Shown: in pieces, positions 758 through 5,227 of the stretch
Layout: every line of letters starts with the position of its first letter
How positions within the stretch are numbered: the first letter of the stretch is position 1
From: a virus
Virus record (IMG/VR): IMGVR_UViG_3300045988_028249
Location: 1 to 5,227 of that record
Strand: one strand, 5' to 3'
DNA length: 5,227 nt
Notes under the pieces: model-generated
Database searches by the model: none
Seen by the model: the letters and a program-made list of their open reading frames with translations, nothing else
Told to the model about the DNA's origin: nothing
Translations under genes and position numbers: made by a program

Positions 758-822
758 AAATTCCTTCTGAATGGTGGTGTGTTCTTTTCCTTTTGGTCGT
801 TATAGGAGTTATGTGTTTATGA
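754..822 (+). CDS. Micro-ORF, 22 aa, MKIPSEWWCVLFLLVVIGVMCL: a single hydrophobic helix. Its start overlaps the VP2 stop (ATGA)
   Basis: ATG 754-756 overlaps the VP2 TGA 755-757. Weak SD-like AAGAG 9 nt upstream. 15 of 22 residues are hydrophobic. Confidence 0.3.
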   Translation: MKIPSEWWCVLFLLVVIGVMCL

Positions 823-899
823 ATAAATCCGCTTGGGTCGCTCTTCTCTGCAATATTGCGACTGTCATCGTTAATTTCTTTCAGTCCTACACTTTCTAA
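819..899 (+). CDS. Micro-ORF, 26 aa, MNKSAWVALLCNIATVIVNFFQSYTF: a single hydrophobic helix. Its start overlaps the stop of the previous micro-ORF (ATGA)
   Basis: ATG 819-821 overlaps TGA 820-822. AGGAG at 804-808 lies about 10 nt upstream. N-terminal Lys followed by a hydrophobic stretch of about 18 aa. Confidence 0.35.
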   Translation: MNKSAWVALLCNIATVIVNFFQSYTF

Positions 900-930: not shown

Positions 931-1050
931 ATGTCTAAAAAGCGTTCTCGTATGTCCCGTCGCCGCTCGAAGAAGTTGTTTTCTAAAACGGCTCTGCGCA
1001 CGAAGAGTGTGAATACCCGCCCGCCCATGCGCGGAGGTTTCCGTCTCTGA
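931..1050 (+). CDS. Small Arg/Lys-rich protein (39 aa, MSKKRSRMSRRRSKKLFSKTALRTKSVNTRPPMRGGFRL), gokushovirus ORF8-like putative DNA-binding/packaging peptide
   Basis: GGAGG SD 5 nt upstream of the ATG. 15 of 39 residues are basic. The size, composition and C-terminal ...MRGG(F/I)RL resemble gokushovirus ORF8 proteins as I recall them. Confidence 0.6.
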   Translation: MSKKRSRMSRRRSKKLFSKTALRTKSVNTRPPMRGGFRL

Positions 1051-1234
1051 CTGCCTACATCCCTTTTATTGCGCGTAGGCGAAGCCTAAAGCCGCGCCCC
1101 TTGTCGCCAATTCGGAGTCCAATTGTGTTCCAAGGCGCGGCGTAACGCAGCATCTCCTACGTGTTTAATGGATGTACCGCGTAGGGCGCTCTAAGAAGAT
1201 GTCTCACCTAGCGCGCCCCTACTTTCAATACCTA

Positions 1235-1260
1235 TTACCCGCATCGCGGGTTTACTTTTT
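1235..1260 (+). terminator. Candidate rho-independent terminator: stem acccgc/gcgggt with loop atc, followed by TTTACTTTTT
   Basis: GC hairpin (1236-1241 / 1245-1250) followed by a T-rich run 1251-1260. It lies 185 nt downstream of the VP1-VP2-ORF8 gene block. Confidence 0.4.
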
Positions 1261-1408
1261 CCGTGGTAAGCCTCTAAAGAGGCAACTCCCCTTTCGAGCC
1301 AAAAGGGCGGCGTGCCGAAGGCCGCCGGTCGTTGGCGTAGAAAGGATGTCGGCGGTAGTGGCGGAGATCTGAGACCTAAGCCGAGACTGTGTAGGAACTG
1401 CGAGCGGT

Positions 1409-1471
1409 GTCGTAGCGTTACGAAGTCGCGTAGCTTGCGAAGCGAACGAGTAGCGCGTAGACATCGCGAAG
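1409..1471 (+). repeat. Three degenerate direct repeats (~17 bp; consensus approx. CGCGTAGC-TT-(A/G)CGAAG), iteron-like, 80-140 nt upstream of the Rep gene
   Basis: gtcgtagcgttacgaag (1409-1425), tcgcgtagcttgcgaag (1426-1442), gcgtagacatcgcgaag (1455-1471). A related CGCGTAG motif also occurs at 1073-1079 and 1179-1184. Confidence 0.4.
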
Positions 1472-1550
1472 CGTTCCGAAACAGGCTCGTGCGACGGTCG
1501 AAGGTCGCCGCCGCGACAAACCGCCGACCCCCACTACGGAGTGAGATCGT

Positions 1551-2558
1551 ATGACTTGCTACCACCCCATTACGATGTACCGCTTGCGAAGCGGTAAAAA
1601 TCCTGTTACCGGTGCGTGGCCTCTCACATCGTCTCCAAAGTTAGGTTATACGGATAAACCTGTGCAGGTTCCCTGTGGTCAGTGCATTGGCTGTCGTCTT
1701 GAGTATGCTCGCCAGTGGACAGACCGTTGTGAAAAAGAGTTGATGCACCCTTATCTGCCGCTGATTCCTGAACTTGAAAAGGTTCAGGCAGGTGCGAAGG
1801 TACAACAACTCGAGTACAGGAAAGAGAGTTGTTTTCTAACGCTGACTTATGACAATGAACATCTTCCGGACGATAAAGGACTTAATAAGTCAGATTTGCA
1901 AAAGTTTTGGAAACGTTTTCGAAAGGCCCATCCCCTGGTACGTATTCGCTATCTTGCTTGCGGTGAGTATGGCGACCAACTGGGTCGCCCTCACTATCAT
2001 GCTATTGTGTTTGGTTATTCTTTTGATGGAGTAGAACCCTGGTGCAAAAATGAACTCGGTCAATATACCTACGTCTGCAAGGAACTCTCGGAACTTTGGC
2101 CGCTTGGCCTTGCCACGGTGACTAATGATGTCTCCCGTGAGTTGATTGGTTATGTCGCCCGCTACGTCGTTAAGAAGGTCAACGGTGATATGTCGATCGC
2201 TCACTATACCGACCCCGAAACTGGCGTGATCCGCCAAAAGGAATTTCTCGTTATGTCCCGTCGTCCAGGTATCGGTGAAAATTGGATTCGTGAAAACGCA
2301 GCCGAAGTTGTGGCTCACGGTAACACCCTTCTGAGCAATGGCCACCTTGCGCCGTTGCCCAGGTACTTTGAGAATAAGGTTCTTCAGATTGCCGACGAAG
2401 CTACTACTAAGGAACTATTGACAAACAAGGAAAGACGTGCTATAGTGGCACGTAAGAAGGTTGAAGATAACACGCCTGATCGTCTTGGCGACCGTGAGGA
2501 AATCAAGCTCCGACGGGCTTCCCTTCTTTCCCGCAGGTTGGATTCTGCTCTTGCGTGA
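1551..2558 (+). CDS. VP4: Replication initiation protein VP4 (rolling-circle HUH endonuclease, phiX174 gpA-like), 335 aa
   Basis: Motifs read directly: CFLTLTYD (RCR motif 1). HYHAIVF (HUH, nt 1992-2000). GYVARYVVKK with two Tyr 4 residues apart (Y201, Y205; nt 2151-2165), matching the phiX174 A YVAKYVNKK active site. N-terminal CGQCIGC Cys cluster. GGAG SD 9 nt upstream. Confidence 0.95.
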   Translation: MTCYHPITMYRLRSGKNPVTGAWPLTSSPKLGYTDKPVQVPCGQCIGCRLEYARQWTDRCEKELMHPYLPLIPELEKVQAGAKVQQLEYRKESCFLTLTYDNEHLPDDKGLNKSDLQKFWKRFRKAHPLVRIRYLACGEYGDQLGRPHYHAIVFGYSFDGVEPWCKNELGQYTYVCKELSELWPLGLATVTNDVSRELIGYVARYVVKKVNGDMSIAHYTDPETGVIRQKEFLVMSRRPGIGENWIRENAAEVVAHGNTLLSNGHLAPLPRYFENKVLQIADEATTKELLTNKERRAIVARKKVEDNTPDRLGDREEIKLRRASLLSRRLDSALA

Positions 2559-2598
2559 ATTCGACGTTACTACTATTATGTTGAATGAGGTTTGAATC

Positions 2599-2915: not shown

Positions 2916-2937
2916 CCCGCCGCCCGGCGGGTTTTTT
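2916..2937 (+). terminator. Rho-independent terminator: cccgcc-gccc-ggcggg followed by TTTTTT
   Basis: Perfect 6-bp GC stem (2916-2921 / 2926-2931), 4-nt loop, T6 at 2932-2937. Lies between VP5 and VP3. Confidence 0.6.
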
Positions 2938-2963: not shown

Positions 2964-3449
2964 ATGTGTATGTTTCGTACCCGCTACGCGAAGGACGTTA
3001 AAGCGCCTTCCCACGGTATCGAGTTCGTACAGCCCTCTCAGGCTATCCAGTCGGAAAAGGAAGGTACGACGATTGATTACTACCTGCGTAAATACGCTTC
3101 TACTGGCATTCTTGGTGATCCTGAATCCGCGATGAACATGCAGTTTGGTGACTTCACGGATGCCCCTGATTTTGAGACTGCCCAAAACCGTGTCGTTCAG
3201 GCGTCGATGTATTTCGACAATTTGCCCGCGAAACTCCGCGAACGCTTCGGAAACGACGTTCGCGAAATGATGGCATTCCTCTCGAAGGAGGAAAACCATG
3301 AAGAAGCCGTCAAACTCGGTCTGCTTGAGGCTCTGCCTGAAGCTCCTACACCTTTACCCGAAGTCGAGCCCGTACACCCGATTACGGATGTTCAGAACCC
3401 TGCTAAGGAACCGTCTAGCGTTCCCGCCGAACCTAAACAGGAGGTTTAG
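2964..3449 (+). CDS. VP3: Internal scaffolding protein VP3 (161 aa from ATG 2964; the six-frame ORF extends to a TTG at 2949)
   Basis: Conserved core ...AMNMQFGDFTDAPDFETAQNRVVQASMYFDNLPAKLRERFGNDVREMMAFL..., typical of gokushovirus VP3 (QNR...LPA.LR.RFGND). Acidic/Pro-rich C-terminal tail. GGAG at 2951-2954 gives 9-nt spacing to ATG 2964. ATG 2970 is an alternative start. Confidence 0.85.
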   Translation: MCMFRTRYAKDVKAPSHGIEFVQPSQAIQSEKEGTTIDYYLRKYASTGILGDPESAMNMQFGDFTDAPDFETAQNRVVQASMYFDNLPAKLRERFGNDVREMMAFLSKEENHEEAVKLGLLEALPEAPTPLPEVEPVHPITDVQNPAKEPSSVPAEPKQEV

Positions 3450-3451
3450 AG

Positions 3452-3511
3452 ATGTTTCGCAAATCTCGCCGTCGTAACCGCCGCGGTCGCCGCGGCAAAA
3501 CCCGTCGCTAA
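3452..3511 (+). CDS. Tiny Arg-rich peptide (19 aa, MFRKSRRRNRRGRRGKTRR), a positional analogue of phiX174 J (immediately upstream of the major capsid gene)
   Basis: Strong SD AGGAGG (3439-3444) 7 nt upstream. Begins 2 nt after the VP3 stop. 12 of 19 residues are Arg/Lys. Located directly before VP1. Confidence 0.5.
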   Translation: MFRKSRRRNRRGRRGKTRR

Positions 3512-3530
3512 GACGGTTTTCCACCCCGTC

Positions 3531-3561
3531 CGCACAGTCTATTACTTGTTGTAACTGTGCG
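3531..3561 (+). promoter_or_regulatory. Intergenic hairpin (8-bp stem cgcacagt / actgtgcg, 15-nt loop) between the 19-aa ORF and VP1
   Basis: Exact inverted repeat 3531-3538 / 3554-3561, read directly. Confidence 0.3.
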
Positions 3562-3592
3562 CACTGACACCAAAACTTTTGGATGCAAAAAA

Positions 3593-5227
3593 ATGAGCAA
3601 AACTTCTGCCCGCCCTTTTGGAACTTCCAACTCCCTTTTCTCTCAGATTCCGCGTGCTGAGATTCAGCGCTCTGCTTTCGATCGTTCTCATGGTTATAAG
3701 ACTACGTTCAATGAAGGTCTGTTGATTCCCTTCTTTGTGGACGAAGTCCTTCCTGGAGATACTTTTTCGCTCTCTTGGGCGGCTATTTGCCGTCTCACGA
3801 CCCCGATTGTTCCTTTCATGGATTCGATCTATCTGAAAGCTTATTGGTTCTTCGTTCCTAATCGTTTGGTCTGGAATAATTGGCAGCGCTTTATGGGTGA
3901 ACAGGAAAATCCCACTGATTCGACCGATTTCCTCGTCCCTTCTTTTAATACTACTGGCTCTGGCGCTACTTATGGCACGCTCTGCGACTACTTCGGCATC
4001 CGCACGGGTGTTAAAGGTATTAAGAATATTAATGCGCTCCCCTTCCGCGCCTACTTTAAGATTTGGAATGACTGGTTCCGCGATGAAAACTTACAGGATT
4101 CTCAAGGCGAATGGAATCAGACAACGAACCCTCAGCATTACACTGATCCGATTGGCGATGCTTCGATTGATTACACCTTGACGATGCCTTTGCGTCGGAA
4201 TAAGTTTCACGACTATTTCACGAGTTCTCTGCCTTGGCCTCAGAAAGGCGACCCCGTACAGATTTCGCTCGGTTCGTCTGTTCCTTTGTCTATTTCTAAC
4301 ACTCTTGCTGTTACTGGTAATGGTTCGCCGACTTTTACTAGTCCTTATGGTATTTCTGCGGCTGATGCTGTTAAGGCTTCTTCTAATAAGCCTACTACTT
4401 TGTACTTTGCCTCCTCGGGTAATGTTGCATCTTGGTCGAATCCTGCTCTTACTCTTTCTGGGTCTATTACTGGCACAGCCGATCTTTCTCAGGCTCAGCC
4501 GATCACCATCAATGACTTGCGCCAGGCTTTTCAGATTCAGAAGTTGAAGGAACGTGACGCCCGTGGCGGTACTCGTTATACTGAAATTTTGCGTGCGCAC
4601 TTTGGTGTCGTATCCCCTGACGGTCGTCTTCAGCGTTCGGAATTTCTTGGTTCCTCGACCTCTCAGATTTATGTCTCCGAGATTGCTCAGACGTCTGCCT
4701 CTGACTCGACTACCCCACAAGGCAACTTGGCTGCCTATGCCGTCGGCCGTGACCGCAAATTCGGTTTTACGAAGTCCTTTGTGGAGCATGGCTTCATCAT
4801 CGGCCTCATCACGGCTACTACGGACTTGACCTATCAGCAAGGCGTCAACCGTATGTGGAACCGTCGTGACAAGTACGACTACTATTGGCCTGCCCTTGCT
4901 CATCTTGGTGAACAGGCAACTCTTAACAAAGAGATTTTTGCCCAAGGCACTGCTGACGATGACAAGGTGTTCGGTTATCAGGAACGTTGGGCTGAGTATC
5001 GTTATTATCCGTCGATGATTACCGGTAAGTTGCGCTCTGATGACGCTCAGACGCTTGACATGTGGCACTTGTCTCAGCGCTTCGAGAACCTGCCCACGTT
5101 GTCCAGTCAGTTTATCGAAGACCGGCCTCCGATTGATCGTGTGGTTGCTGTGCAGTCTGAACCTCATTTCATTCTTGATGCTTGGTTTAAGTTGCGTTGC
5201 GTGCGTCCGATGCCGGTGCGCTCTGTG
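3593..5227 (+). CDS. VP1: Major capsid protein VP1 (gokushovirus-type). This is the 5' 1635 nt; the ORF continues across the circular junction to nt 143 (552 aa in total)
   Basis: Translation MSKTSARPFGTSNSLFSQIPRAEIQRSAFDRSHGYKTTFNEGLLIPFFVDEVLPGDTFSLSW...TPIVPFMDSIYLKAYWFFVPNRLVWNNWQRFMGEQ...ALPFRAYFKIWNDWFRDENLQ... carries the hallmark N-terminal motifs of Microviridae major capsid proteins. The frame has no stop before the window end. The six-frame track omits it only because it runs off the window. Confidence 0.97.
   Translation, partial: MSKTSARPFGTSNSLFSQIPRAEIQRSAFDRSHGYKTTFNEGLLIPFFVDEVLPGDTFSLSWAAICRLTTPIVPFMDSIYLKAYWFFVPNRLVWNNWQRFMGEQENPTDSTDFLVPSFNTTGSGATYGTLCDYFGIRTGVKGIKNINALPFRAYFKIWNDWFRDENLQDSQGEWNQTTNPQHYTDPIGDASIDYTLTMPLRRNKFHDYFTSSLPWPQKGDPVQISLGSSVPLSISNTLAVTGNGSPTFTSPYGISAADAVKASSNKPTTLYFASSGNVASWSNPALTLSGSITGTADLSQAQPITINDLRQAFQIQKLKERDARGGTRYTEILRAHFGVVSPDGRLQRSEFLGSSTSQIYVSEIAQTSASDSTTPQGNLAAYAVGRDRKFGFTKSFVEHGFIIGLITATTDLTYQQGVNRMWNRRDKYDYYWPALAHLGEQATLNKEIFAQGTADDDKVFGYQERWAEYRYYPSMITGKLRSDDAQTLDMWHLSQRFENLPTLSSQFIEDRPPIDRVVAVQSEPHFILDAWFKLRCVRPMPVRSV
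5109..5227. repeat. Second copy of the terminal redundancy (equals nt 1-119)
   Basis: Exact identity with nt 1-119. Confidence 0.95.

What the first reader, a model, noticed from the sequence alone, without database searches (positions are those of the whole stretch)
3452..3511. Two separate tiny Arg-rich peptides in one microvirus genome (19 aa before VP1 and 39 aa after VP2)
Microviruses normally encode one small basic DNA-binding peptide (phiX174 J, gokushovirus ORF8) that accompanies the ssDNA into the procapsid. This genome has a 19-aa peptide, MFRKSRRRNRRGRRGKTRR, with a strong AGGAGG SD in the J-like position immediately upstream of VP1. It also has a 39-aa peptide, MSKKRSRMSRRRSKKLFSKTALRTKSVNTRPPMRGGFRL (931-1050), with GGAGG and an ORF8-like C-terminus. 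Either one is a duplicate or decoy, or the two divide the DNA-binding/packaging role.
Basis: partly seen in the sequence, partly recalled or inferred. Interest (0 to 1): 0.55.

Follow-up and report, generated by a model that had tools for sequence, protein, structure and literature searches.

The report
Extra 19-residue polyarginine gene in gokushovirus
A clade of temperate gut microviruses, apparently hosted by Sutterella, carries the usual 39-residue DNA-binding peptide VP8 plus a conserved, unannotated 19-residue arginine-rich mini-gene between the scaffold and capsid genes, whose role (most likely binding the phage's nucleic acid) is untested.

Summary
The window is a circular gokushovirus genome of about 5108 nt. 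It holds a 19-aa ORF at 3452-3511 (MFRKSRRRNRRGRRGKTRR, AGGAGG 7 nt upstream) and a 39-aa ORF at 931-1050.

The 39-aa peptide is the canonical VP8, the analogue of phiX174 J. It matches phrog_10695 end to end and aligns end to end with phiEC6098 VP8 (8DES_E).

The 19-aa ORF looks like a real gene that gene callers miss:
- It is intact in 19 of 19 clade loci (12 distinct DNA sequences, at least 11 samples, including prophages).
- The ATG always sits 2 nt after the VP3 stop, and the stop codon varies (TAA, TAG, TGA).
- One relative has an in-frame 18-aa version that keeps most of the charge.
- pN/pS is about 0.21 in its frame and at least 1.1 in the other + strand frames. VP1 synonymous divergence among the same genomes is about 0.5.

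The ORF is confined to this clade. It is absent from every outgroup examined (VP1 63% identity or less). It shows no similarity to VP8 beyond composition, and it lacks VP8/J's C-terminal capsid anchor. So it is neither a duplicate nor a decoy.

My best guess is an unanchored polycationic nucleic-acid-binding peptide that helps package ssDNA. A cis-acting coupling or leader role and an RNA-binding regulator role remain open. Interest is moderate.

The parts
3439..3444 (+). Shine-Dalgarno AGGAGG for the micro-ORF, embedded in the last codons of VP3 (…K Q E V stop)
   Evidence: It reads AGGAGG in most clade members, GTGAGG in L081 and L092/L093, and AGAAGG in L099 (a Sutterella MAG prophage whose VP1 ORF is cut short). 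Spacing to the ATG is constant.
3452..3511 (+). Micro-ORF encoding the 19-aa polycation MFRKSRRRNRRGRRGKTRR. The ATG lies 2 nt after the VP3 stop codon.
   Evidence: Intact in 19 of 19 clade loci, with 12 distinct DNA sequences and 6 peptide variants. At least 7 synonymous and 3 non-synonymous changes, two of them K to R. pN/pS is 0.21-0.22, against at least 1.1 in the other + strand frames. Found in 1 of 500 shuffles.
3480..3496 (+). Palindrome inside the micro-ORF (GCCGCGG-TCG-CCGCGGC), made by a 9-nt tandem repeat CGCCGCGGT/CGCCGCGGC that encodes RRG-RRG
   Evidence: -14.3 kcal/mol. The RRRGRG variant keeps a shorter hairpin of -9.9 kcal/mol.
3497..3520 (+). Hairpin 1: A-tract, 5-bp stem CCGTC/GACGG, a pentaloop GCTAA that contains the micro-ORF stop codon, then TTTT. 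Shaped like a weak intrinsic terminator.
   Evidence: pair 3505/3513 is U-A in 5 sequences and C-G in 5.: -10 to -14 kcal/mol in most members, but only -5.4 (z = 0.15) in L083. The terminator scan did not call it.
3528..3571 (+). Conserved gokushovirus stem-loop (stem 3528-3537 with 3555-3564, loop …ACTTGTTGTAA) followed by TGACACC. Probably the (+) strand origin nick site.
   Evidence: 9 of 10 stem pairs are invariant; the motif occurs in 61 of 103 loci, at different genome positions. The link to the phiX174 ori core CAACTTG^ATATTAATAAC is from my own knowledge and is an inference.
2964..3449 (+). VP3 internal scaffolding protein gene. Its stop codon is 2 nt before the micro-ORF start.
   Evidence: (PF09675 Chlamy_scaf, E 1.6e-29).
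3593..5227 (+). VP1 major capsid protein gene. It continues through the terminal overlap to 143 (552 aa in all).
   Evidence: PF02305, E 3e-179; P0021, 100% identity, 552 aa.
931..1050 (+). VP8 (ORF8), the 39-aa canonical DNA-binding peptide MSKKRSRMSRRRSKKLFSKTALRTKSVNTRPPMRGGFRL, with its SD at 921-926
   Evidence: phrog_10695, E 9.6e-13, full length. (end-to-end alignment with 8DES_E, phiEC6098 'Putative DNA binding protein'). (intact in all 13 clade loci that cover it). (the …RGG[FWIY]R[LIFM] C-terminus recurs in 82 gokushovirus loci).

Best explanation
The 60-nt ORF at 3452-3511 is a real gene specific to one clade of temperate gokushoviruses. These phages integrate at dif sites and are apparently hosted by Sutterella.

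Translation: the ORF is probably translated from the AGGAGG that sits inside the last VP3 codons, or by ribosomes re-initiating 2 nt after the VP3 stop. That would make the peptide in step with the scaffolding protein.

Product: an 18-19-residue peptide with about 12 positive charges, no acidic residues and no hydrophobic anchor.

Relation to VP8: the 39-aa ORF is the canonical VP8, the J analogue whose C-terminus docks in the capsid protein. The micro-peptide is an addition to VP8, not a copy of it.

Most likely role: a free, protamine-like counter-ion that binds the phage's single-stranded DNA (or its RNA) during replication-coupled packaging and supplements VP8.

What is shown: the ORF exists, it is conserved, its substitutions fit a coding sequence, its SD and stop-start layout are constant, it is confined to the clade, and it is unrelated to VP8.

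What is inferred: that it is translated, that it binds nucleic acid, and that it has any role in packaging or is present in virions.
For: - The ORF is intact in 19 of 19 clade loci from at least 11 independent samples. These include integrated prophages and give 12 distinct DNA sequences.
- The ATG is invariant and always 2 nt after the VP3 stop, although the spacer (AG, TC or CC) and the VP3 tail vary. The stop codon is TAA, TAG or TGA at the same position.
- L083 carries an in-frame 18-aa version. It lost one Arg codon, gained N9K, and keeps 11 K/R plus one His.
- Variable sites fall 7:2:1 at codon positions 3:2:1, and both position-2 changes are K to R.
- pN/pS is 0.21-0.22 in the ORF frame, against 1.1 and 9.5 in the other + strand frames.
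- The same genomes differ at about 50% of VP1 synonymous sites, so an unconstrained 57 nt would have decayed.
- Composition alone gives such an ORF in 1 of 500 shuffles.
- The most divergent member keeps the ORF while hairpin 1 weakens. This points to the peptide rather than that hairpin as the conserved feature.
- The layout mirrors phiX174, where a small basic peptide gene is followed by a weak terminator (TJ) and then the capsid gene (PMC11527146).
- Short basic peptides are the known packaging counter-ions of microviruses (PMC11281519; PMC7096446).
Against: - There is no direct evidence of translation or of the peptide in virions.
- The peptide lacks the hydrophobic or aromatic C-terminus that tethers J and VP8 to the capsid. 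Nothing known would hold it in the particle or fix its copy number.
- VP8 in this clade already has a typical charge for the genome length: +15 for about 5.1 kb, against 8-17 for 4.0-5.2 kb elsewhere, r = 0.2. There is no evident charge deficit to fill.
- Outgroups of similar size manage without it (L097, 5100 nt).
- Synonymous sites in the ORF are themselves less variable than in VP1 (pS 0.25 against 0.51). The ORF also contains a palindrome and overlaps a covarying hairpin. Nucleic-acid-level constraints therefore act on the same bases.
- The antisense frame that shares the wobble register gives the same pN/pS of 0.21. I reject it only for lack of an ATG and SD, and because microvirus genes all lie on one strand (my own knowledge).
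- All evidence comes from one shallow clade. VP1 identity runs 85-100%, then drops to 63% or less.
Confidence: 0.42

Rival explanations
1. Cis-acting coupling or leader ORF. The act of translating the ORF matters, not the peptide. Ribosomes leaving VP3 translate the micro-ORF and stop inside the loop of hairpin 1 (A-tract, stem, T-tract). This melts a weak terminator or RNA structure and so ties VP1/VP2 expression to VP3 translation. With 10 Arg codons in 19, it could even act as an arginine-sensing attenuator leader.
For: - The stop codon sits in the pentaloop of a hairpin flanked by AAAA and TTTT, and one stem pair covaries 5:5.
- That hairpin folds at -10 to -14 kcal/mol in most members.
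- The 2-nt stop-start spacing after VP3 is constant.
- A second hairpin lies inside the ORF.
- phiX174 has a weak terminator at the equivalent place (PMC11527146).
- Synonymous variation in the ORF is depressed.
Against: - Hairpin 1 is nearly lost in L083 (-5.4 kcal/mol, z = 0.15), while the ORF and its charge are kept.
- Replacements conserve charge along the whole peptide (K4R, K16R, N9K offsetting a lost Arg). A leader would need only a few key codons.
- The terminator scan did not call the hairpin, which has only four T.
- I found no alternative antiterminator pairing.
Confidence: 0.2
2. Trans-acting arginine-rich-motif (ARM) regulator. Like the RNA-binding segments of lambda/P22 N or BIV Tat, the peptide binds a specific hairpin. 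The candidate is hairpin 1, whose pentaloop can adopt a GNRA-like fold with one base flipped out. Binding would control termination, translation or mRNA stability, or mark the DNA next to the origin.
For: - The composition and length are typical of ARM peptides (my own knowledge).
- The adjacent hairpin has a 5-bp stem and a pentaloop of G-Y-U-R-A in most members. This is the size of a boxB hairpin.
- The peptide gene and the hairpin are inherited together across the clade.
Against: - The loop sequence is dictated by the Arg codon plus the stop codon, so the GNRA-like pattern may be a by-product.
- L082 has a tetraloop GCUA, and L083 has only a 3-bp stem.
- A 19-aa peptide has no domain for recruiting Nus factors or polymerase.
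- No binding data exist.
Confidence: 0.1
3. Non-coding structured DNA or RNA element. It could be part of the origin region, a complementary-strand priming site or a packaging signal. The open frame would then be incidental to CGN-rich palindromes.
For: - The ORF sits just upstream of the widely conserved origin-like stem-loop.
- It contains a CCGCGG palindrome.
- The flanking non-coding bases are at least as conserved as the ORF.
- Synonymous sites are constrained.
Against: - Substitutions follow a three-base period.
- The ATG, SD, frame and stop are kept in all 12 variants, including across an in-frame deletion.
- The first 28 nt of the ORF have no conserved structure yet still encode basic residues.
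- Outgroups keep the origin-like hairpin without this 80-nt segment.
Confidence: 0.1
4. Host-directed or lifestyle function of a real peptide, unrelated to packaging. Examples are binding host ribosomes, nucleoid or membranes, helping lysis, or modulating lysogeny in the prophage state.
For: - The peptide is confined to a temperate, dif-integrating clade.
- VP8 already provides normal packaging charge.
- The genome carries other clade-conserved micro-ORFs that may target the host.
Against: - There is no hydrophobic segment for membrane action.
- The position between scaffold and capsid genes, coupled to VP3, suggests late structural co-expression.
- No precedent was found in the papers read.
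Confidence: 0.1
5. The 19-aa ORF is a duplicate or degenerate copy of the N-terminal basic arm of VP8.
For: Both peptides are rich in R, K and S and share a short run, KSRRR against MSRRR.
Against: - The local DNA alignment score is 8, against a codon-shuffled mean of 9.5. The protein score is 28, against a shuffled mean of 28.7.
- The VP8 C-terminal motif is absent.
- Both ORFs are conserved under constraint.
- At this length, homology cannot be strictly excluded.
Confidence: 0.03

Closest known systems
Gokushovirus VP8 / ORF8 DNA-binding peptide (phiEC6098 VP8, PDB 8DES chain E; SpV4 VP8)
   Same: Both are tiny, highly basic, acid-free peptides encoded by a gokushovirus. VP8 is the established counter-ion that lines the capsid interior (PMC11281519). 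The window's own 39-aa ORF is a member of this family.
   Different: The 19-aa peptide is half the length. It lacks the …PMRGG[FWIY]R[LIFM] C-terminus that inserts into the VP1 hydrophobic pocket. It shows no similarity beyond composition. It sits at a different locus (after VP3, not after VP2) and is confined to one clade, whereas VP8 spans the subfamily.
J protein of phiX174, G4 and alpha3 (Bullavirinae)
   Same: It is a small basic peptide; J is 24-38 aa, from my own knowledge. Its gene lies directly before the major capsid gene and after a scaffolding gene, and a weak terminator-like hairpin follows it (TJ in phiX174, PMC11527146). The presumed role is neutralising ssDNA during packaging.
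   Different: There is no aromatic or hydrophobic C-terminal anchor and no sequence relationship. The genome already has a J analogue in VP8. The upstream scaffold gene is the internal VP3, not the external D. Presence in virions is unknown.
Arginine-rich RNA-binding motifs (lambda/P22 N, HIV/BIV Tat) and protamine-like polycations
   Same: It has about 60% Arg/Lys over about 19 residues with interspersed Gly, Ser and Thr, and it lies next to a small stem with a pentaloop.
   Different: It is a stand-alone peptide rather than a segment of a larger protein. No specific target has been shown. The comparison rests on composition only (my own knowledge).
Leader peptides of transcription attenuators (hisL, pheL, thrL)
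   Same: It is a very short ORF rich in one amino acid that ends at a hairpin followed by a T-run, upstream of a highly expressed gene.
   Different: I found no alternative antiterminator structure. Charge is conserved along the whole peptide, and the hairpin is not conserved in L083.

Membership tests
Gokushovirus VP8/ORF8 (phrog_10695), tested on the 39-aa ORF 931-1050 | Profile match over the full length of a peptide of about 36-43 aa | tested here: met
   phrog_10695 at E 9.6e-13, residues 3-39 against profile positions 2-39 of 39. The only PDB hit is 8DES_E (phiEC6098 'Putative DNA binding protein', 39 aa), aligned 1-39 to 1-39 at a weak E of 0.45.
Gokushovirus VP8/ORF8, tested on the 39-aa ORF 931-1050 | C-terminal …MRGG[FWIY]R[LIFM] capsid-docking motif behind a basic N-terminal arm | tested here: met
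   The ORF ends …PPMRGGFRL and has 15 K/R with no D/E. The same C-terminus appears in 82 gokushovirus loci. The docking role is taken from PMC11281519.
Gokushovirus VP8/ORF8, tested on the 19-aa ORF 3452-3511 | C-terminal …MRGGxR[LIFM] motif, length of about 36-43 aa, and sequence similarity to VP8 | tested here: not met
   The peptide ends …GKTRR and is 18-19 aa in all members. Alignment scores against VP8 are at or below shuffled controls. It is too short for the profile libraries.
Bullavirinae J protein, tested on the 19-aa ORF | Small basic peptide gene placed between a scaffolding gene and the major capsid gene and followed by a weak terminator | tested here: inconclusive
   The position between VP3 and VP1 and the basic composition are met. 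The hairpin with a T-run has one covarying pair, but the terminator scan did not call it and it is weak in L083. The upstream gene is the internal scaffold, not protein D.
Bullavirinae J protein, tested on the 19-aa ORF | Hydrophobic or aromatic C-terminus that binds the capsid protein cleft | tested here: not met
   The only hydrophobic residues are M1 and F2 at the N-terminus. The C-terminus is K-T-R-R.
Bullavirinae J protein / VP8 (function), tested on the 19-aa ORF | Present in mature virions (about 60 copies) and required for DNA packaging | not testable with these tools
   This needs virion mass spectrometry and a start-codon knockout in a resurrected phage.
Attenuator leader peptide, tested on the 19-aa ORF | Mutually exclusive terminator and antiterminator structures controlled by ribosome position | tested here: inconclusive
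   Two adjacent hairpins are predicted (3480-3496 and 3497-3520). I found no alternative pairing, and the terminator-like hairpin is not conserved in L083.
Protein-coding gene (general), tested on the 19-aa ORF | Conserved start, frame and stop with an excess of synonymous over non-synonymous change | tested here: met
   19 of 19 loci are intact. pN/pS is 0.21-0.22 against at least 1.1 in the other + strand frames. There are 7 synonymous changes against 3 non-synonymous. Caveats: the sample is small (57 nt, one clade), and the antisense frame with the same wobble register scores equally.

The most novel reading that the evidence does not exclude
The peptide would be the smallest functional gene product known to me in a microvirus. 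It would act as a sequence-selective arginine-rich motif that recognises the stem and pentaloop carrying its own stop codon, directly upstream of the origin-like hairpin, as RNA or as ssDNA. One possibility is that it autoregulates read-through into the capsid operon. Another is that it nucleates condensation of the nascent strand where rolling-circle synthesis and packaging begin. Either would be a second, mechanistically distinct DNA/RNA-handling peptide alongside the capsid-anchored VP8.
Probability: 0.1. Interest if true: 0.75.

Novelty: new variant of a known kind. Interest (0 to 1): 0.5.

Why it matters
Published accounts give microviruses a single small basic peptide (J or VP8) that escorts ssDNA into the procapsid and docks in the capsid by its C-terminus. 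A conserved second peptide that has the charge but not the anchor raises three possibilities. Charge neutralisation may be split between a tethered and a free component. Arginine-rich micro-peptides may do something else in ssDNA phages. Or translation of tiny ORFs may regulate capsid gene expression.

The case also shows that gene callers, with the usual cut-off of about 30 codons, miss real genes in 5-kb phage genomes. This clade has at least three further micro-ORFs.

The question can be tested. The phage exists as intact dif-flanked prophages, and a gokushovirus of this type has already been revived from a prophage sequence (PMC7062461).

Tried and rejected
1. Chance ORF in an Arg-codon-rich spacer: rejected (1 of 500 shuffles; conservation and three-base periodicity).
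2. Duplicate of VP8: no similarity above shuffled controls.
3. C-terminal extension of VP3 by read-through or frameshift. The ORF is in the -1 frame relative to VP3. An in-frame TAA at 3434-3436 leaves only 15 nt in which to shift, with no slippery site. The ATG is invariant while the spacer varies. Rejected.
4. Compensation for an unusually large genome or a weakly charged VP8. VP8 here has +15, at the high end, and charge correlates only weakly with genome length (r = 0.2). L097 is 5100 nt and has no micro-ORF. No support.
5. Wider distribution. There is no comparable ORF in 79 other IMG/VR gokushovirus loci, in four GenBank outgroups or in L103. A degenerate DNA pattern for MFRKSRR found only L001 plus chance hits in IMG/VR. 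The one intermediate VP3 relative (P0019/L115) ends 17 nt after VP3 and is uninformative.
6. Known RNA family: Rfam gave nothing in the region.
8. An 80-aa Arg-rich GTG ORF at 1312-1554 that ends in ATGA with VP4: rejected as coding, because indels in the clade are not multiples of three.
9. A 16-aa basic ORF in L015, L022 and L032 lies inside VP3 in another frame and is not an analogue.
10. SD-sequestering hairpin 3441-3447 with 3461-3467: only partly kept in relatives on inspection. Not pursued.

Full report
WHAT THE WINDOW IS. The 5227 bases are one circular gokushovirus genome with a 119-nt terminal overlap, so the unit length is about 5108 nt. All genes lie on the + strand:
- VP1 major capsid, 3593 through the overlap to 143 (PF02305, E 3e-179)
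- VP2, 155-757
- a 39-aa ORF, 931-1050
- a 500-nt GC-rich non-coding stretch, 1051-1550
- VP4 replication initiator, 1551-2558
- VP5, 2599-2877
- VP3 scaffold, 2964-3449 (PF09675)
- the 19-aa ORF, 3452-3511
GenBank phage records hold nothing closer than about 70% nucleotide identity over parts of VP1.

CHECK OF THE OBSERVATION. Both ORFs are exactly as described.
- The 19-aa ORF reads ATG TTT CGC AAA TCT CGC CGT CGT AAC CGC CGC GGT CGC CGC GGC AAA ACC CGT CGC TAA.
- AGGAGG at 3439-3444 lies 7 nt before the ATG, inside the last VP3 codons.
- The VP3 stop (TAG, 3447-3449) is 2 nt before the ATG.
- An in-frame TAA at 3434-3436 rules out a longer ORF.
- An ATG ORF of at least 15 aa with at least 55% K/R arose in only 1 of 500 dinucleotide-preserving shuffles.
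- The ORF is 81 nt upstream of VP1, not abutting it.

THE 39-AA ORF IS VP8.
- It matches phrog_10695 over its whole length (E 9.6e-13).
- Its only PDB hit is chain E of 8DES, the phiEC6098 'putative DNA binding protein', also 39 aa and aligned end to end.
- Its C-terminus …PMRGGFRL is the motif found in 82 of the gokushovirus loci I collected.
- Cryo-EM work shows that the VP8 C-terminus is buried in a hydrophobic pocket of VP1 while the basic arm faces the DNA. VP8 is regarded as the analogue of phiX174 J (PMC11281519; PMC7062461; PMC9239249).

IS THE 19-AA ORF REAL?
Relatives. IMG/VR held one close relative, L001 (VP1 90% identical), which has both ORFs. Protein searches with VP3 and VP1 revealed a discrete clade. 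VP3 identity runs 78-97% and VP1 identity 85-100%, followed by a gap down to 63% or less.

Conservation. I retrieved 19 clade loci from at least 11 independent samples, including integrated prophages.
- Every one carries the ORF intact, giving 12 distinct DNA sequences and 6 peptide variants.
- The ATG is invariant and always 2 nt after the VP3 stop, even where the spacer (AG, TC, CC) and the whole VP3 C-terminal tail differ.
- The stop is TAA, TAG or TGA at the same place.
- The most divergent member, L083 (VP3 78% identical), has an in-frame 18-codon version, MFRKSRRKRRHGRGKSRR. It lost one Arg codon, offset by N9K.

Substitution pattern.
- Among the 19-codon versions, variable sites fall 7:2:1 at codon positions 3:2:1. 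Both second-position changes are K to R.
- Summed over all pairs, pS is 0.25 and pN is 0.054, a ratio of 0.22.
- The first 80 codons of VP1 in the same genomes have pS 0.51. Non-synonymous sites of the micro-ORF are therefore about ten-fold less variable than VP1 synonymous sites in the same genomes.
- Read in the other two + strand frames, the same bases give ratios of 1.1 and 9.5.
- The antisense frame that shares the wobble register also gives 0.21. I discount it because it has no ATG or SD and because microvirus genes all lie on one strand (my own knowledge).

Conclusion. This is very probably a translated gene; I put that at about 0.8. Gene callers never report it.

DISTRIBUTION AND ORIGIN.
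- None of the 79 other IMG/VR gokushovirus loci (VP1 about 50% identical) has a comparable ORF.
- The nearest outgroups also lack one: four GenBank genomes and L103, at about 60% VP1 identity.
- In the two outgroups where the two features lie adjacent (L097, L098), about 10 nt separate the VP3 stop from a conserved stem-loop. In this clade an extra segment of about 80 nt, holding the micro-ORF and a small hairpin, sits between them.
- A degenerate DNA pattern for MFRKSRR found only L001 and chance hits in IMG/VR.
- The ORF shows no similarity to VP8 beyond composition.
- Its centre is a 9-nt tandem repeat, CGCCGCGGT/CGCCGCGGC, encoding RRG-RRG. The RRGRRG and RRRGRG variants look like repeat slippage.
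- VP8 is intact in all 13 clade loci that cover it. The two peptides therefore coexist, and neither replaces the other.

SURROUNDING STRUCTURE. Three hairpins follow one another.
- Hairpin A, 3480-3496, is the CCGCGG palindrome inside the ORF (-14.3 kcal/mol).
- Hairpin 1, 3497-3520, is AAAA, a stem CCGTC/GACGG, and TTTT. Its pentaloop GCTAA contains the stop codon. One stem pair is U-A in five sequences and C-G in five. It folds at -10 to -14 kcal/mol in most members but only -5.4 (z = 0.15) in L083. The terminator scan did not call it.
- Hairpin 2, 3528-3564 plus TGACACC, has the loop …ACTTGTTGTAA. It occurs in 61 of 103 gokushovirus loci at various genome positions. It resembles the phiX174 origin core CAACTTG^ATATTAATAAC (my own knowledge), so it is probably the (+) origin.
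- Rfam has nothing in this region.

MECHANISM.
Shown: a conserved, coding-like micro-ORF with an SD, set 2 nt after VP3, confined to the clade, unrelated to VP8, and highly cationic with charge-conserving replacements.

Inferred: translation coupled to VP3, and a free polycation that binds the phage's nucleic acid and assists packaging. The layout resembles phiX174's arrangement of J, the TJ terminator and gene F (PMC11527146). I give this reading 0.42.

Points against the packaging reading: there is no capsid anchor, and there is no charge deficit. VP8 here is +15 for 5.1 kb, which is normal.

Rivals:
- A cis-acting coupling or leader ORF that opens hairpin 1 (0.2). This is weakened by L083 keeping the peptide but not the hairpin.
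- An ARM-type RNA-binding regulator of the adjacent pentaloop hairpin (0.1).
- A purely structural DNA element (0.1).
- A host-directed role (0.1).
- A duplicate of VP8 (0.03).

COMPARISON AND NOVELTY.
- The 39-aa ORF is an ordinary VP8.
- The 19-aa ORF fails the defining C-terminal anchor test for both VP8 and J, so it is not a member of either family. It resembles them only in charge, size class and, for J, gene position.
- I found no paper describing a second basic micro-peptide in a gokushovirus. The searched library is incomplete, however.
- I class it as a new variant of a known kind. Interest is moderate, at 0.5. It is clade-restricted and its function is unproven, but it is cleanly conserved and can be tested.

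SIDE FINDINGS.
- The phage is temperate. Prophages L089, L100 and L099 (the last in an uncultured Sutterella MAG) sit between thiC and a xanthine/uracil permease gene. On the left they are flanked by a palindromic 28-bp dif site, and on the right by the phage's dif-like site, window 2559-2586. This matches XerCD-mediated integration as described for enterogokushoviruses (PMC7062461).
- The 500-nt non-coding region is strongly structured (z = -5.2).
- Two further hydrophobic micro-ORFs are conserved between VP2 and VP8.

Noticed in passing
window 2559-2586; L089, L100 and L099 prophage junctions: A 28-nt dif-like site, ATTCGACGTTACTACTATTATGTTGAAT, lies between VP4 and VP5. Integrated copies sit between thiC and a xanthine/uracil permease gene. 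On the left they are flanked by a palindromic dif, ATTCAACATAACTACTATTATGTTGAAT, and on the right by the phage site. One of these contigs is from an uncultured Sutterella MAG. This suggests a temperate, XerCD/dif-integrating gokushovirus outside the Enterobacteriaceae.
   Followed up: partly
window 3528-3571; also 61 of 103 loci: A conserved stem-loop with loop …ACTTG(A/T)TGTAA followed by (C/G)TGACACC recurs across gokushoviruses at different genome positions, often just before VP8. It resembles the phiX174 origin nick site and is probably the (+) strand origin. The papers I searched contained neither 'origin of replication' nor 'hairpin' for gokushoviruses.
   Followed up: partly
window 1051-1550: A 500-nt GC-rich non-coding region lies between VP8 and VP4. 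It is conserved in the clade, with indels that are not multiples of three and two alternative versions of its 3' half. As ssDNA it folds far better than shuffles (-116 kcal/mol, z = -5.2). It contains many GCGTAG/CGAAG repeats and has no Rfam match. Its function is unknown.
   Followed up: partly
window 819-899 and 754-822: A 26-aa hydrophobic micro-ORF, MNKSAWVALLCNIATVIVNFFQSYTF, is conserved in all 10 clade loci examined. It is preceded by a 22-31-aa ORF that looks like a single transmembrane segment and whose sequence is replaced between members (MKIPSEWWCVLFLLVVIGVMCL, MENISIWHWIILLGLGAIVFLIWSILKIFKK and others). These may be membrane or lysis peptides. Gene callers did not report them.
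   Followed up: partly
window 2916-2937: A canonical terminator-like hairpin, CCCGCC-GCCC-GGCGGG followed by TTTTTT, lies between VP5 and VP3. The simple scan did not list it. It falls within a sub-threshold Rfam hit to anti-hemB (E 0.28).
   Followed up: no
window 2418-2446: The best sigma-70-like promoter match in the genome (TTGACA, 17 nt, TG-TATAGT, 11 of 12) lies inside the 3' end of VP4, upstream of VP5 and VP3.
   Followed up: no
P0031 / L001 (IMGVR_UViG_2663763167_000003): In NCBI, a clade capsid protein (P0031, 90% identical to the window's VP1) on a 5152-nt contig is labelled 'Chlamydia trachomatis'. L001 is also 5152 nt and 90% identical in VP1, so it is probably the same contig. 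Given the Sutterella prophages, the label probably reflects contamination of a clinical-sample assembly rather than the true host.
   Followed up: no
L099 8628-9518: In the Sutterella MAG prophage the VP1 ORF stops after 296 aa, and the micro-ORF SD reads AGAAGG. This may be a decaying prophage or an assembly artefact. The micro-ORF itself is intact.
   Followed up: no
L094 about 4440-4477 (wraps to the contig start): A distant relative (VP3 39% identical) has no micro-ORF. Its VP1 begins with a basic arm, MAYKRKRTMAKRGKPR…. Positive charge may be placed differently in different gokushovirus lineages.
   Followed up: no
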